Assembly: GCF_000011465.1 (NCBI RefSeq)
Contig: NC_005072.1
Location: forward strand, 750,001-782,000
Source: Prochlorococcus marinus subsp. pastoris str. CCMP1986
GTDB lineage: Bacteria; Cyanobacteriota; Cyanobacteriia; PCC-6307; Cyanobiaceae
Direction of reading: 5' to 3'
Length of the DNA: 32,000 nucleotides
Positions 17,002 through 26,472 of this stretch are shown piece after piece. Numbering within the stretch: position 1 is the first letter of the stretch; each line of letters opens with the position of its first letter. A model generated the notes under the pieces. The model had not been told where the DNA came from, did no database searches, and saw nothing but the letters and a program-made list of their open reading frames with translations. The position numbers and the translations under genes were made by a program.

Positions 17002-17366
17002 AAACTAATATCTTTTTTTAATTTACTAGTTATCTTTGGGAACTATAACTCAAGTAAATAATCAATTTCTGTTATAAAAAAAATTCTCTATCATTTGTAG
17101 CAATATTTGGAGAAGAAATATTAGATTATCATCCTCTTAACTAATAAAGTATCTTTTAATCGTTTGAAAAGTAAATTTTGTTCTATTCTTGTGTTTTTCA
17201 AATAATTTTGTAGATTTTTCAAAATTTTGTCAAATATTTTATTTTCTAAATAACCTTATATAACTTAAATAATTTTTTCTATACCAATGAATTATCAAGT
17301 TTTAATGAATGCGATTGTTTAATAATTATTGTTAATGTAAATTAAATCAATAATATTTGGTTTTCA

Positions 17367-23223: not shown

Positions 23224-23484
23224 TTAAACGAAACCTGGAATGATTTGACCTGTAGTTAGATATGCACCAACTGCAGCTATAAGTCCGATCATTGCAAATC
23301 TACCGTTGAGAGTTTCTGCAACAACTTTTTCCTTCTCGATTGTTTTAGTTTTTGTGTTTGAGTTTGTCATTTGATTTTTGTTTGAGTAGATTAAATTTTC
23401 TTCTTGAAATTGTTTAGTTAGGGAAGCAACGAGTAAAGCAGTTAGAGATACAATTAAAATCAAAAAAACTGCTAGTGGACTCAT
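23224..23484 (-). CDS. hli: high-light-inducible protein, possibly with an extra N-terminal helix (86 aa from ATG 23484; 48 aa from ATG 23370)
   Basis: The C-terminus AETLNGRFAMIGLIAAVGAYLTTGQIIPGFV is a canonical HLIP. The in-frame upstream segment MSPLAVFLILIVSLTALLVASLTKQ begins at an ATG overlapping the previous stop (TAATG). Confidence 0.8.
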   Translation of the reverse strand: MSPLAVFLILIVSLTALLVASLTKQFQEENLIYSNKNQMTNSNTKTKTIEKEKVVAETLNGRFAMIGLIAAVGAYLTTGQIIPGFV

Positions 23485-23693
23485 TAAAAAATACCTGGAA
23501 TGATTTGACCTGTTGTTACGTATGCACCTAATAATGCTACGAAGCCAATCATTGCCCAACGACCGTTAACTTTTTCTGCGTTTTGAGGATAGCCGTCATA
23601 AGAAACTGACTCATCTATGTAAGGACGAGTTTCTGATGGAAACATGTTTTGTCTTCCGCCAGACTCAGTTGTTGTGTATGAAGAATTTGACAT
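23484..23693 (-). CDS. hli: high-light-inducible protein, 69 aa
   Basis: NAEKVNGRWAMIGFVALLGAYVTTGQIIPGIF. Its ATG overlaps the stop of the preceding hli (TAATG). Confidence 0.9.
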   Translation of the reverse strand: MSNSSYTTTESGGRQNMFPSETRPYIDESVSYDGYPQNAEKVNGRWAMIGFVALLGAYVTTGQIIPGIF

Positions 23694-23800
23694 TAGAAAA
23701 AACCAGGAATTATTTGACCAGTTGTTACGTATGCGCCAACAGCTGCTACGAAACCAAGCATTGCTGCTAAGCCGTTAAATCTTTCTGCGTCAGGTGTCAT
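23693..23800 (-). CDS. hli: minimal high-light-inducible protein, 35 aa, with Leu replacing the motif Arg
   Basis: Below the track threshold: MTPDAERFNGLAAMLGFVAAVGAYVTTGQIIPGFF. The helix is nearly identical to its neighbours, but ExxNGR is ExxNGL. Confidence 0.75.
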   Translation of the reverse strand: MTPDAERFNGLAAMLGFVAAVGAYVTTGQIIPGFF

Positions 23801-23997
23801 AATTAAAATTTGATTATGTAAACAAATATAACACAACTATTAATGAATGTAAAGATATTGGCCTCTATTAGTGCTTAAATAGTATTTTCTATACATTTTT
23901 GATACATTAATGTATAAAGTCATTAAACTTATCTATTTATTGTTAACAAGTAAGATTTTGAAAAATAATAAACAATTATTTATGAAACTTTTTAGGT

Positions 23998-24814: not shown

Positions 24815-25090
24815 TTAATTATTAACTTTGAGTTTTTCTCTTAATTCTGGAAAGCTATTTGCAATATGGATTAACTCATAAACCTCTTCACTATCATATT
24901 TTTTATCCGGAACTCCACTTCCTACTTCTATTCCTTTATCTTTCATTTTCTTTAGGATCAGTTCTTGTCTTTCTTGCCTTGTCATCGATTTATATTTTTT
25001 TCTTATTTCTTCTTTATCCATAATAATTAAAGCTAATGCAATTGTTCCAATACTAAAAATTAAGCTCCATCCCTTCGAGTTTATAGGCAA
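24815..25090 (-). CDS. hypothetical protein with N-terminal membrane helix
   Basis: 91-aa ORF from TTG with WSLIFSIGTIALALIIM followed by a charged helical tail. Confidence 0.4.
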   Translation of the reverse strand: MPINSKGWSLIFSIGTIALALIIMDKEEIRKKYKSMTRQERQELILKKMKDKGIEVGSGVPDKKYDSEEVYELIHIANSFPELREKLKVNN

Positions 25091-25503
25091 TTTATATATA
25101 ATTTCTATTTGATTATCTTATTAAATAGTGATTGTAATAAAACATAAAAATATTTAATTTATAGTATTAAAAATTTAATTACCATAGGTAATACCTATCT
25201 CCTCATTTCTTCTTAATTCGGCTTATGTCCTCCCTAGCCCACTACTATCGCTATCACTAAATTCTATATATTAATTTTTAAATACAGTTCCAGGTATGGG
25301 TTTATCGTACTAAAGTATAAATACTGGGTCTCTATGTATAAAAAATCATACAAGAAGACATTAATCTATAGTAAAAGCATTACGCAAAGATATATCAGCT
25401 AAAACAAGAAAACTTTATAAATTAGCACCGAAGAAGATATAGATCAGTAGCTGTATTGTTAGGTCACTCAAAGTAGTCAACCCTTCTCCTCGTTTAGTTG
25501 AGT

Positions 25504-25611
25504 TTAAAAATAAGGAGTATATGGAACTTCAGAATTTAGTGAGTCACCATAATAGCTTTCTGCTGACTTCTCTAATAACCAGTACAAGAAATTAACAAAT
25601 GGTTTCTGCAT
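25504..25611 (-). CDS. micro-ORF A (35 aa), paralogue of micro-ORF B
   Basis: MQKPFVNFLYWLLEKSAESYYGDSLNSEVPYTPYF. It shares a 21-residue core with ORF B and has many synonymous codon differences (see findings). Confidence 0.45.
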   Translation of the reverse strand: MQKPFVNFLYWLLEKSAESYYGDSLNSEVPYTPYF

Positions 25612-25673
25612 AAGAATCTCTATTTCTATAGTCATTCAAATTCATATCTCTAATTTAAAGGACGTAAAAATAC

Positions 25674-25796
25674 TTATTTAGAAAAAGATCGAATCGTATT
25701 AGAAGGGACTTTTATTGGAACTAAAGATTTACCGTAGTGTGATTCGGCTGATCTCATCAGTAACCAGTAAAAGAAATTTACTAAAGCAGTCTCCAC
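25674..25796 (-). CDS. micro-ORF B (40 aa, GTG start), paralogue of micro-ORF A
   Basis: (M)ETALVNFFYWLLMRSAESHYGKSLVPIKVPSNTIRSFSK. There is a stop (TAA) two codons upstream of the GTG. Confidence 0.45.
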   Translation of the reverse strand: METALVNFFYWLLMRSAESHYGKSLVPIKVPSNTIRSFSK

Positions 25797-26365
25797 AAGG
25801 ATTTAGTAACTGACCTAAGAAACCTTATTCGAAGTGTATTAGCAATATACAAAACTCTAATATCAAGCAATCAAGACATTTGTATCAGTATGAACTATTT
25901 AGTTACTTAAACAAATCATTATTACTCAAACACATAAAACTAATTAATGATAAACAATAACAAATTAATAAAATATTAAATTTAAGTGGAAATAAATTTC
26001 CTCTAGGTTGTTGTTAAACATAGCTATCTGTATTTTGGTATTTGTTATTTAGATTTTTTTACCAAGCTTTTTGTAATAGTTAATTAATAGATGTCTTTAA
26101 TTTTCTTACTAATTCCTTACCTCTCTTGGTTAAAAAAGTCAGTCTCTTCTCCTATCAGCAGGATCTTCCATTTTTGATATAAGTCCTATTCCAGAGACTT
26201 CCCTCTTAGTCTATAAGCAGATAACCAATCTGTATTTCTGCTAAAACTAGCTTTGTCCATTTTAGTTATCATTTTCAGGGTTTTTGAGTGTACTAGCTTC
26301 CTTCCTATTCCATTACTTTCCGATTCGTGATAACTAAGTTATTACCCCAAACCTATTGCAAGCAC

Positions 26366-26388
26366 AAAAAAACCCGTCTATGACGGGC
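26366..26388 (-). terminator. rho-independent terminator of the tRNA gene
   Basis: The minus strand reads GCCCGTC-ATA-GACGGG followed by TTTTTTT, starting 8 nt after the tRNA CCA end. Confidence 0.7.
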
Positions 26389-26395
26389 TTCTCAT

Positions 26396-26472
<77 letters not shown>

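What the first reader, a model, noticed from the sequence alone, without database searches (positions are those of the whole stretch)
25504..25796. Two tandem paralogous micro-ORFs with a codon-level signature of purifying selection, inside an apparently empty tract
Both ORFs are on the minus strand. ORF A (25611..25504) reads MQKPFVNFLYWLLEKSAESYYGDSLNSEVPYTPYF. ORF B (25796..25674, GTG start) reads (M)ETALVNFFYWLLMRSAESHYGKSLVPIKVPSNTIRSFSK. Across a 21-residue core, 15 residues are identical (VNF-YWLL--SAES-YG-SL). Seven of those 15 use different codons: GTT/GTA, TTA/CTG, GCA/GCC, AGC/TCA, TAT/TAC, TCA/TCT and CTA/TTA. These include six-fold Ser and Leu family switches that need several nucleotide changes. 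An in-frame 3-codon indel follows the core. This pattern fits selection on a peptide rather than a drifting DNA repeat. Both ORFs fall below the ORF-track threshold and I recognise no family. The sequence has an aromatic/hydrophobic N-half and a polar tail, with no full TM helix.
Basis: seen in the sequence. Interest (0 to 1): 0.7.

Follow-up and report, generated by a model that had tools for sequence, protein, structure and literature searches.

The report
Conserved Prochlorococcus micro-protein gene pair
The two tiny minus-strand reading frames are real protein-coding genes, one 35 and one 40 amino acids long. They belong to an uncharacterised micro-protein family that I found only in high-light Prochlorococcus and surface-ocean metagenomes. 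The peptide sequence is strongly conserved, but its function has never been tested.

Summary
ORF A (25611..25504) and ORF B (25796..25674) read exactly as reported, with 15 of 21 core residues identical and 7 of those using different codons.

They are genuine genes.
- I found relatives in 10 Prochlorococcus genome loci, 288 marine metagenome stretches and 168 protein clusters. None turned up in phage collections.
- Across 77 distinct DNA versions of the A type, only the proposed frame is open, with pN/pS 0.10. Diversity by codon position is 3.3/0.3/10.3. Family ORF lengths all differ by multiples of three.
- Degraded B copies exist elsewhere, so intact copies are being maintained.

Other results:
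- The window comes from Prochlorococcus genome CP138976.1. ORF A is annotated there as a 43-aa hypothetical protein, probably from the wrong start. ORF B is not annotated.
- Each ORF has its own conserved upstream element with a -10-like box about 50 nt before the start codon.
- AlphaFold predicts one helix (residues 2-25) and a disordered tail. There is no transmembrane segment.
- No Pfam, NCBIfam, PADLOC, PHROG, Rfam or PDB relative was found.

The best-supported view is an island-borne pair of single-helix micro-proteins. The proposed mode of action, binding a larger partner, is inference only. This is a new member of a known kind and of moderate interest.

The parts
25504..25611 (-). Micro-gene A: 35 aa, MQKPFVNFLYWLLEKSAESYYGDSLNSEVPYTPYF, including the stop codon. 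Annotated in RefSeq from the upstream ATG at 25635 as a 43-aa hypothetical protein.
   Evidence: Sequence. 85 intact 35-aa homologues, 77-78 distinct DNA versions, pN/pS 0.10, and the only open frame. The upstream ATG is not conserved. Annotation.
25674..25796 (-). Micro-gene B: 40 aa with a GTG start, (M)ETALVNFFYWLLMRSAESHYGKSLVPIKVPSNTIRSFSK, including the stop codon. Not annotated in the source genome.
   Evidence: Sequence. 12 intact B-type homologues (9 distinct DNA versions), pN/pS 0.24. An ATG sits at the aligned start in the loci that carry B alone, L008-L010. No gene is called there in CP138976.1.
25612..25676 (-). Conserved leader of gene A. It begins at B's stop codon (TAAGTATTTT-TACG...) and contains the box ATTTGAAT (25641..25634). 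It is a probable promoter -10 region (TATTTT / TACGWT about 55-62 nt before the ATG) plus a 5' UTR.
   Evidence: The leader precedes every A-type ORF in 79 distinct sequences, whatever the upstream neighbour. Per-site diversity is about 0-0.1 in the two boxes, against a mean of 0.29 at third codon positions. TAnnnT hexamers are nearly invariant. There is no consensus RNA structure and no Rfam match.
25840..25874 (-). Conserved promoter-like element of gene B: TTGATT (25874..25869), 19 nt, TATATT (25849..25844). The predicted transcription start is near 25837-25840, giving a 5' UTR of about 41-44 nt (25797..25839).
   Evidence: The element is conserved between the tandem loci (window, L001, L002) and the B-alone loci (L008-L010). 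It is unique in the window, with 0 matches expected by chance. The simple consensus scan missed it because the spacer is 19 nt.
25385..25503 (-). 3' flank of gene A, conserved only among loci with the tandem arrangement. No convincing terminator or structure. It contains a 21-codon TTG ORF (25480..25415) behind an AGGAG that is not conserved as coding.
   Evidence: z-score -1.2; consensus energy -0.26 kcal/mol. The small ORF has an in-frame TAG in L002 and L022.
26396..26472 (-). tRNA-Met (CAT). This is context: the border of the variable small-ORF region that holds the two micro-genes. The conserved core genes lie beyond it (asparaginase II, CGLD27-like, RsfS).
   Evidence: The syntenic tRNA is in L001, with about 1.5 kb more DNA between the tRNA and gene B.

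Best explanation
Shown:
- ORF A and ORF B are two anciently duplicated, independently maintained protein-coding micro-genes.
- I found their family only in high-light Prochlorococcus genomes (cultured members: MIT 9107, 9123, 9201, SB and this strain) and in surface-ocean metagenomes.
- Selection acts on the amino-acid sequence.
- The conserved module is the N-terminal 25 residues: M-x-K-x-[LF]-x-N-F-x-Y-W-x-L-x-[KR]-S-A-E-S-[YH]-Y-G-x-S-[LMF].
- Residues 2-25 are predicted to form a single alpha-helix. It has a roughly 10-residue aromatic, hydrophobic N-terminal part and a polar second half.
- A short subtype-specific tail follows: EVPYTPYF in A, VKVPSN-I-SFS in B.

Inferred:
- Each gene has its own -10-type promoter about 50 nt upstream. 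In this window B and A can therefore be made separately, or together from B's promoter.
- The peptides are too short and too polar to span a membrane, and they have no enzyme-sized relatives. They most likely act as stoichiometric binders, docking the aromatic helix onto a larger protein or onto each other, with the tail giving specificity. Known cyanobacterial small regulators work this way.
- They are dispensable accessory genes of the variable region next to tRNA-Met, which also carries hli genes.

The partner and the physiological role are unknown.
For: Coding status:
- Exact sequences.
- 10 genome loci, all Prochlorococcus. 288 metagenome relatives, 80 examined. 168 protein clusters. 34 representatives at 50% identity, all tiny peptides apart from one spurious repeat match.
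- Diversity by codon position is 3.31/0.30/10.3, and pN/pS is 0.096 (A), 0.24 (B) and 0.27 (A2).
- Only the proposed frame is open, in 77 of 77 sequences.
- ORF lengths differ by multiples of 3.
- Decayed B copies where selection has lapsed.

Ancient duplication: pS between A and B is saturated at 0.76.

Structure: AlphaFold2 predicts a helix at residues 2-25, with pLDDT 87 over residues 1-20 and a low-confidence tail. The maximum Kyte-Doolittle 19-residue window is 0.0-0.5, so there is no transmembrane segment. There are 9-10 aromatic residues in 35.

Separate promoters:
- The conserved B element is at 25840-25874.
- The A leader is conserved in three different upstream contexts. These include loci where the upstream gene is divergent, so A must have its own promoter there.

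A and B each occur alone in some genomes.

Known precedents for binder-type small proteins and for tandem small-protein paralogues are AtpTheta, AcnSP, PirA and nblA1/nblA2, as reviewed in PMC11848123.
Against: - No transcription, translation or interaction data exist for any member. I found no ribosome-profiling or proteogenomic study of a strain that carries it.
- The helix is not strongly amphipathic (muH 0.1-0.3), so the binding surface is not obvious.
- The AlphaFold model rests on a shallow alignment (9 sequences; mean pLDDT 75, pTM 0.39).
- Neither promoter matches a full sigma-70 consensus. The -10 assignment of the A leader is ambiguous: TATTTT or TACGWT.
- No consistently linked partner gene was found. 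The 91-aa neighbour co-occurs in 8 of 11 genome loci, but at variable distance and orientation.
Confidence: 0.55

Rival explanations
1. Membrane-interface or toxic peptide. The aromatic N-terminal stretch (F-x-N-F-x-Y-W-x-L) would insert into the membrane interface. The peptide would then perturb membranes or a membrane complex, as a type I toxin, a phenol-soluble-modulin-like peptide or a photosystem accessory would.
For: The hydrophobic, aromatic 10-residue segment has mean Eisenberg hydrophobicity 0.57-0.77. The genes lie in a variable region with hli genes and small membrane-protein ORFs. There is a weak resemblance to the N-terminus of PsbX (MTPSLMNFFYSLL, E = 0.35). Steglich et al. proposed toxin-antitoxin-like peptide/antisense pairs (Yfr9/Yfr8) in MED4 islands (PMC2518516).
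Against: There is no segment long enough to span a membrane (maximum KD19 0.0-0.5). The second half of the helix is polar and acidic. The Pfam scan, which includes the PsbX family, returned nothing for the peptides at E <= 1. No promoter-like site was found on the plus strand over the ORFs. The PADLOC scan gave no significant hit (only E = 0.053 for B, 11.3 bits).
Confidence: 0.15
2. Precursor peptides of a ribosomally synthesised, post-translationally modified peptide. The conserved N-terminal helix would be the leader, and the subtype-specific aromatic tail (EVPYTPYF, VKVPSNSIKSFS) would be the modified core.
For: The N-terminus is conserved while the tails vary across divergent members. The tail is rich in Tyr, Pro and Phe. 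Prochlorococcus is known (from my own knowledge) to make lanthipeptides from many precursor genes.
Against: No modifying enzyme, protease or transporter lies in the surrounding 9 kb. The ORFs there have no Pfam domain except DUF1651 and a weak chlorophyll a/b-binding hit on one hli-type gene, and the flanking genes are housekeeping. No enzyme is consistently linked in 91 loci. Tails are strongly conserved within each subtype rather than hypervariable. There is no double-glycine cleavage motif (sequence).
Confidence: 0.06
3. A regulatory leader peptide or a dual-function RNA. On this view the RNA or the act of translation matters, not the peptide, as with the Yfr6 / Downstream-peptide (glutamine riboswitch) transcripts.
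For: The roughly 65-nt 5' leader is strongly conserved at the nucleotide level. Short conserved ORFs behind conserved leaders are known in marine picocyanobacteria (PMC2864571; PMC2518516).
Against: There is no Rfam match, even at E <= 10. The leader has no consensus secondary structure or covariation. A pN/pS of 0.10 over the whole ORF shows that the amino-acid sequence itself is constrained. In the dominant environmental context the downstream gene is usually convergent on the opposite strand, so in those loci there is nothing to attenuate.
Confidence: 0.05
4. A drifting non-coding DNA repeat with chance ORFs.
For: The genome is AT-rich and full of short ORFs. Both ORFs are shorter than most gene-caller thresholds.
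Against: All the points under coding status above apply: frame-specific conservation, codon-position periodicity and indels in multiples of three.
Confidence: 0.01

Closest known systems
Cyanobacterial small regulatory proteins that bind larger proteins: AtpTheta (48 aa), AcnSP (44 aa), PirA (52 aa); and the adjacent paralogues nblA1/nblA2 (review PMC11848123)
   Same: Size class and stand-alone genes with their own promoters. The peptides are too short to be enzymes and have largely helical or disordered architecture. nblA1/nblA2 give a precedent for two adjacent small-protein paralogues.
   Different: There is no sequence similarity to any of them. No Pfam, NCBIfam or PDB hit was found, and the profile search of 1.84 billion proteins found only the family itself. 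No partner is known. Unlike AcnSP, the family is not a recognisable fragment of a larger protein. It is restricted to the variable genome of high-light Prochlorococcus.
Yfr6 / Downstream-peptide-motif ORFs of marine picocyanobacteria (Rfam RF01704; PMC2864571, PMC2518516)
   Same: Both are short (17-100 aa) conserved ORFs in Prochlorococcus with synonymous-substitution patterns. Both sit behind a conserved 5' leader and are often unannotated.
   Different: The leader here has no RF01704 or glnA match and no conserved secondary structure. The Yfr6 peptide is described as widespread in high-light and low-light strains, whereas this family was found only in some high-light genomes. I could not compare the peptide sequences directly.
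Yfr9 (44-aa ORF) / Yfr8 antisense pair in genomic island 1 of Prochlorococcus MED4 (PMC2518516)
   Same: A small peptide-coding frame in a high-light Prochlorococcus genomic island, present in some strains and lost by frameshift in others.
   Different: The reported Yfr9 carriers MED4, MIT9515, MIT9301 and AS9601 are absent from my hits. That scan used a narrow N-terminal pattern. No overlapping antisense gene is evident here.
PsbX, the small photosystem II subunit (Pfam PF06596)
   Same: The N-terminal 13 residues resemble a plastid or cyanobacterial PsbX N-terminus: MqKtLvNFfYwLL versus MTPSLMNFFYSLL.
   Different: The match is not significant (E = 0.35). The Pfam scan gave no hit. PsbX continues as a full transmembrane helix, whereas these peptides turn polar after about 10 residues.

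Membership tests
Genuine sORF-encoded small protein (<50 aa) | The reading frame is intact in homologues from independent genomes | tested here: met
   102 intact family ORFs in 91 loci, with ATG or GTG at the aligned start. The proposed frame is open in 77 of 77 distinct A-type sequences, and the other five frames carry stops in 73-77 of 77.
Genuine sORF-encoded small protein (<50 aa) | Purifying selection at the amino-acid level (dN/dS well below 1, third-position periodicity, indels in multiples of 3) | tested here: met
   pN/pS is 0.096 (A), 0.24 (B) and 0.27 (A2). Diversity by codon position is 3.31/0.30/10.3. ORF lengths are 108, 111, 120 and 123 nt.
Genuine sORF-encoded small protein (<50 aa) | Transcript and peptide detected | not testable with these tools
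   No expression data are accessible. Literature searches found no ribosome-profiling or proteogenomic study of a carrier strain.
Downstream-peptide / glutamine-II riboswitch-associated ORF (Yfr6 type) | RF01704 (or RF01739) RNA motif in the 5' UTR | tested here: not met
   The whole-window Rfam scan at gathering score found only the tRNA. The scan of 25300-26100 at E <= 10 found only a chance snoRNA hit. RNAalifold predicted 0 pairs on 47 leaders.
RiPP precursor peptide | Genomic linkage to a modifying enzyme, protease or transporter | tested here: not met
   The ORFs from 17.3 to 25.1 kb have no enzyme domain. Neighbour clustering over 91 loci found no recurrent enzyme.
RiPP precursor peptide | Conserved leader with a variable core | tested here: inconclusive
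   The N-terminal 25 residues are conserved and the tails differ between subtypes. Within a subtype the tail is nearly invariant: most of the 85 A-type copies end in EVPYTPYF or a close variant.
Type I toxin (small hydrophobic toxin with antisense RNA) | Transmembrane-length hydrophobic helix | tested here: not met
   The maximum Kyte-Doolittle 19-residue mean is 0.0-0.5. The hydrophobic stretch is only about 10 residues.
Type I toxin (small hydrophobic toxin with antisense RNA) | Overlapping antisense RNA gene | tested here: inconclusive
   No promoter-like site was found on the plus strand over the ORFs in a simple consensus scan. Settling this needs dRNA-seq.
PsbX (PF06596) | Match to the family profile, and a single transmembrane helix | tested here: not met
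   The Pfam scan found 0 families at E <= 1. The PDB profile hit covers only the first 13 residues at E = 0.35. There is no transmembrane helix.
Small protein derived from a fragment of a larger gene (AcnSP type) | Significant similarity to part of a larger protein | tested here: not met
   The profile search of 1.84 billion representatives found 34 hits, all family peptides. The longer ones are mis-called starts or read-throughs, and the single 554-aa hit is a spurious repeat match.

The most novel reading that the evidence does not exclude
The shared aromatic N-terminal helix could be a docking module for a conserved membrane-associated machine, with the alternative tails switching the outcome. 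The candidate machine is a photosystem II or Hlip assembly intermediate. Two hints point that way: the genes sit beside hli clusters, and their first 13 residues resemble the PsbX N-terminus. On this view the A/B pair is net -2 and +3 in this genome and heterodimerises through the helix. It would be a new, ecotype-specific class of photosynthesis or stress modulator carried in genomic islands and controlled through the conserved TAAGTATTT...ATTTGAAT leader.
Probability: 0.07. Interest if true: 0.7.

Novelty: new member of a known kind. Interest (0 to 1): 0.38.

Why it matters
Prochlorococcus is the most abundant phototroph in the ocean. Its variable regions, packed with tiny ORFs, are thought to hold much of its niche and phage-defence adaptation, yet most of that content is unannotated or labelled 'hypothetical'.

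This result turns two sub-threshold ORFs into a well-supported gene family.
- The family has a defined start codon, conserved core motif, subtypes, probable promoters and environmental abundance (288 metagenome stretches, 168 protein clusters).
- It shows that a closed reference genome (CP138976.1) misses one member and probably mis-starts the other.
- It gives concrete, testable targets for small-protein work in marine cyanobacteria: a 20-residue tryptic peptide and a roughly 65-nt conserved leader.

It does not by itself reveal a new mechanism.

Tried and rejected
- **Phage origin.** blastn and tblastn against 50,697 phage records, and a pattern scan of IMG/VR, found nothing.
- **Known families.** Pfam, NCBIfam and PHROGs found nothing for the peptides, and PADLOC gave only a non-significant hit for B at E = 0.053. 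The PDB profile search gave only non-significant hits.
- **Riboswitch or Yfr6-type leader.** No Rfam hit. A single-sequence fold is no better than shuffles (z = -0.36). There is no consensus structure on 47 leaders.
- **Terminator or sRNA in the 3' flank.** The fold z-score is -1.2 and the alignment fold energy is about 0. The scan called no terminator on the minus strand.
- **A third micro-ORF (25480..25415, TTG, behind AGGAG).** It is interrupted by TAG in L002 and L022, so it is not coding.
- **The 43-aa form of ORF A.** The upstream ATG is created by one base after the invariant TTTGAAT box. It is replaced by a TGA-terminated frame in the dominant variant.
- **tRNA-derived att repeats marking an integrated element.** None was found.
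- **The leader motif as a regulon signal elsewhere in the window.** There was only a chance-level match.
- **Remote relatives in larger proteins.** None was found.
- **PsbX homology.** Not supported.
- **Structure searches (fold search).** Not run, because a single helix gives meaningless matches.

Full report
**1. What is in the sequence**

Reading the minus strand of 25200-26200 and listing ORFs reproduces both ORFs exactly.
- ORF A is 25611..25504 (ATG, 35 aa; an in-frame ATG at 25635 would give 43 aa).
- ORF B is 25796..25674 (GTG, 40 aa).
- They are 62 nt apart.

- DNA identity is only 52/77 (68%), without gaps.
- It starts about 8 nt before the two start codons, which align (AT[T/C]CTT[A/G]TG).
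- Over the first 25 codons, synonymous sites are saturated (pS 0.76) while pN is 0.245.
- The paralogues find each other by tblastn at E of about 1e-7. Unrelated hits in the window are at E above 0.1.

**2. Where the window comes from**

- The 43-aa form of ORF A is an exact match to WP_268741266.1, 'hypothetical protein [Prochlorococcus]'. It is carried on CP138976.1, a 1,661,798-bp genome (assembly GCA_047305115.1).
- No gene is called for ORF B there.
- The pair lies 0.6 kb downstream of tRNA-Met (26396-26472, minus strand).
- On the far side of the tRNA are core genes: asparaginase II, CGLD27-like, RsfS and DUF3318.
- On the near side, from about 17 to 26.4 kb, lies a run of small ORFs with no Pfam domain, a DUF1651 protein and three tandem hli genes. 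This run is bounded by a Rieske/PaO-type oxygenase gene.
- This is the typical layout of a high-light Prochlorococcus variable region next to a tRNA. That statement rests on my own knowledge of the field.

**3. Homologues**

- A profile of A and B found 10 predicted proteins, then 168 clusters with a broader profile. The only names attached are 'hypothetical protein', in strains MIT 9123, MIT 9201 and SB.
- A scan of one genome per species found 10 loci, all Prochlorococcus, including the complete MIT 9107 genome.
- A metagenome scan found 288 confirmed stretches, of which 80 were fetched.
- Phage collections gave nothing.
- An index-free HMM search of 1.84 billion representatives found 34 hits. 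All are members of this family, and the longer ones are mis-called starts or read-throughs. The one exception is a spurious repeat protein. The family is therefore not a fragment of any larger protein.

The members fall into four types:

| Type | Length | Distinguishing feature |
|---|---|---|
| A | 35 aa | ends ...NSEVPYTPYF |
| A2 | 36 aa | ...EEVPYTPYF; MIT 9107 and 9123 |
| A3 | 35 aa | dominant environmental form, MEKSFLNFIYWILVKSAESYYGDSMKTEVPYTPYF |
| B | 39-42 aa | ...VKVPSNSI-SFS |

The tandem B-then-A arrangement seen in the window recurs in L001, L002, L013, L014 and L022. L016 also has it but is cut by the contig end. A2, A3 and B also occur alone, and in L020 B and A are divergent.

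**4. Is it coding?**

Yes.
- Among 85 intact 35-aa A-type ORFs (77-78 distinct DNA sequences, 32 distinct peptides), summed diversity by codon position is 3.31/0.30/10.3.
- Pooled pN/pS is 0.096 for A, 0.24 for B and 0.27 for A2.
- As a control, the proposed frame is open in 77 of 77 sequences. The other five frames carry stops in 73-77 of 77, and four of them give ratios of 1.3 to 4.5 (the remaining antisense frame gives 0.20).
- All intact family ORFs are 108, 111, 120 or 123 nt long, with 92 ATG and 10 GTG starts.
- Two decayed B copies show what happens without selection. L015 is 5'-truncated. L060 has lost its start and gained internal stops.
- The GTG of ORF B aligns with an ATG in the loci that carry B alone.
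- The upstream ATG of the annotated 43-aa ORF A is not conserved, and the A3 type has a TGA stop there. The 35-aa start is therefore correct.

**5. Flanking signals**

Gene B:
- It is preceded by a conserved element: TTGATTGCTT-N-TTTTGTATATTGCTA (25874..25840).
- This element is shared by the tandem loci and the B-alone loci, and it is unique in the window.
- TATATT at 25849..25844 is a good -10 box. It predicts a transcription start near 25837-25840.

Gene A:
- Every A-type ORF, in three different upstream contexts, is preceded by the same roughly 65-nt leader. The contexts are after B, after an unrelated 29-aa ORF, and next to a divergent gene.
- The leader reads T[A/G]AGTATTT-N2-TAC-N2-TG-N-TTT ... 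ATTTGAAT ... ATG.
- In the window it begins with B's own stop codon (25676).
- Per-site diversity in the two boxes is about 0-0.1. The mean at third codon positions is 0.29, and the flanks run at 0.3-0.6.
- The leader has no significant fold, no consensus structure or covariation in 47 sequences and no Rfam match. It is therefore conserved as primary sequence.
- Nearly invariant TAnnnT hexamers (TATTTT at about -62, TACGWT at about -55) make a -10 promoter element the most economical explanation. This is inference.
- The A3 genes sit next to a divergent upstream gene and so need their own promoter.
- The role of the ATTTGAAT box is unexplained.
- I found no convincing terminator after A.

**6. 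The peptide**

- AlphaFold2 on a 9-sequence alignment predicts one helix at residues 2-25, with pLDDT 87 over residues 1-20 and a low-confidence tail.
- There is no transmembrane-length hydrophobic segment (maximum KD19 0.0-0.5).
- Residues 4-14 are strongly hydrophobic and aromatic, and the rest of the helix is polar. Nine or ten of the 35 residues are aromatic.
- In this genome A has net charge -2 and B has +3, but that contrast is not conserved in other B types.
- Invariant or nearly invariant positions are N7, F8, Y10, L12, L13, A17, S19, Y21, G22 and S24. More divergent members keep the helix and vary the tail.
- The peptides had no significant Pfam, NCBIfam, PADLOC, PHROG or PDB relative.
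- The best PDB hit is the first 13 residues of a PsbX chain at E = 0.35. I treat this as a lead only.

**7. Mechanism**

Shown: two anciently duplicated, separately conserved micro-protein genes whose amino-acid sequence is under selection.

Inferred: separate promoters, and action as small binding modulators. The aromatic helix would dock onto a partner, or the two peptides onto each other, with subtype-specific tails. This is by analogy with AtpTheta, AcnSP and PirA, and with the adjacent nblA1/nblA2 pair (PMC11848123).

I rate coding status at about 0.95 and the binder model at about 0.3-0.4.

Rivals:
- Membrane-interface or toxic peptide: 0.15. There is no transmembrane segment and no antisense signal.
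- RiPP precursor: 0.06. There is no linked enzyme, and tails are conserved within subtypes.
- Regulatory leader peptide or dual-function RNA: 0.05. There is no structure, and in the common context the downstream gene is usually convergent, so there is often nothing to regulate.
- Chance repeat: 0.01.

**8. Comparison with what is known**

- The nearest described things in Prochlorococcus are the short ORFs behind the Downstream-peptide riboswitch (Yfr6) and the island-borne Yfr9 peptide (PMC2518516, PMC2864571).
- The riboswitch test failed here.
- The family exists in databases only as automatically predicted hypothetical proteins.

**9. Verdict**

This is a real, abundant, uncharacterised micro-protein family with one unannotated member and one probably mis-started member in a closed genome. 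It is a new member of a known kind (conserved bacterial small proteins). It is moderately interesting, and a useful annotation and experimental lead, but it is not a new principle.

Noticed in passing
window 25612-25635 (-): The RefSeq annotation of ORF A (WP_268741266.1, 43 aa) starts at an upstream ATG. That ATG is formed by one base after the invariant TTTGAAT box and is absent from most homologues, so the public start codon is probably 8 codons too early.
   Followed up: yes
window 23224-23836 (-): Three tandem hli (high-light-inducible protein) genes share a 96-nt C-terminal repeat at 71-75% identity. They lie 1.7 kb from the micro-gene pair. hli homologues also lie near family members in L001, L004, L007 and L010.
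   Followed up: partly
window 24815-25090 (-); L001, L002, L004, L006, L008, L009, L010: A 91-aa protein with an N-terminal hydrophobic segment and a charged tail has no family assignment. It co-occurs with the micro-genes in 8 of 11 genome-derived loci, but at distances of 0.4-5 kb and in both orientations. This could be shared island membership or a functional link.
   Followed up: partly
window 25415-25480 (-): A 21-codon TTG ORF (MTTLSDLTIQLLIYIFFGANL) sits just behind a strong AGGAG in the conserved 3' flank of gene A. Its nucleotide sequence is conserved in the tandem loci, but the frame is broken by TAG in L002 and L022. Why this flank is conserved is unexplained.
   Followed up: partly
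L015 1700-1770 and L060 740-860: There are two decayed B-type copies. One has lost its 5' half, and the other has lost its start codon and gained internal stops. Both lie upstream of intact A-type genes.
   Followed up: yes
L001 5933-7814 versus window 25797-26395: The syntenic single-cell genome AG-335-A05 has about 1.5 kb more DNA between tRNA-Met and gene B than the window has. This is an insertion or deletion hotspot right at the tRNA.
   Followed up: no
L006 7848-7937 (+); L003-L005 equivalent: In the A2 loci a different micro-ORF (29 aa in MIT 9107, MEVKTLLKELARVWKKILMTLKTWIGKFK) ends on the same TAA that opens the conserved A leader. Its frame differs in L003, so its coding status is doubtful.
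   Followed up: partly
L041 2665, L047 about 2668, and about 20 other A3-type loci: A sequence resembling the first leader box (TAAGTATTTGATATTTTGTTTTTCAT) lies about 266 nt upstream of the real leader on the same strand. It overlaps the 3' end of the divergent 38-61-aa gene. It may be chance in AT-rich DNA or a trace of duplication.
   Followed up: no
family N-terminus (window 25573-25611, -): The first 13 residues resemble the N-terminus of a photosystem II PsbX chain (8wql): MTPSLMNFFYSLL, E = 0.35. The match is not significant, and the Pfam scan found no family for the peptides.
   Followed up: partly
window 23874-23894 (+) and 17264-17284 (+): A 21-nt repeat (CTTAAATAGTATTTTCTATAC, 90% identical copies) lies in two intergenic spots of the variable region, one just upstream of the hli cluster. 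It could be a shared promoter element.
   Followed up: no
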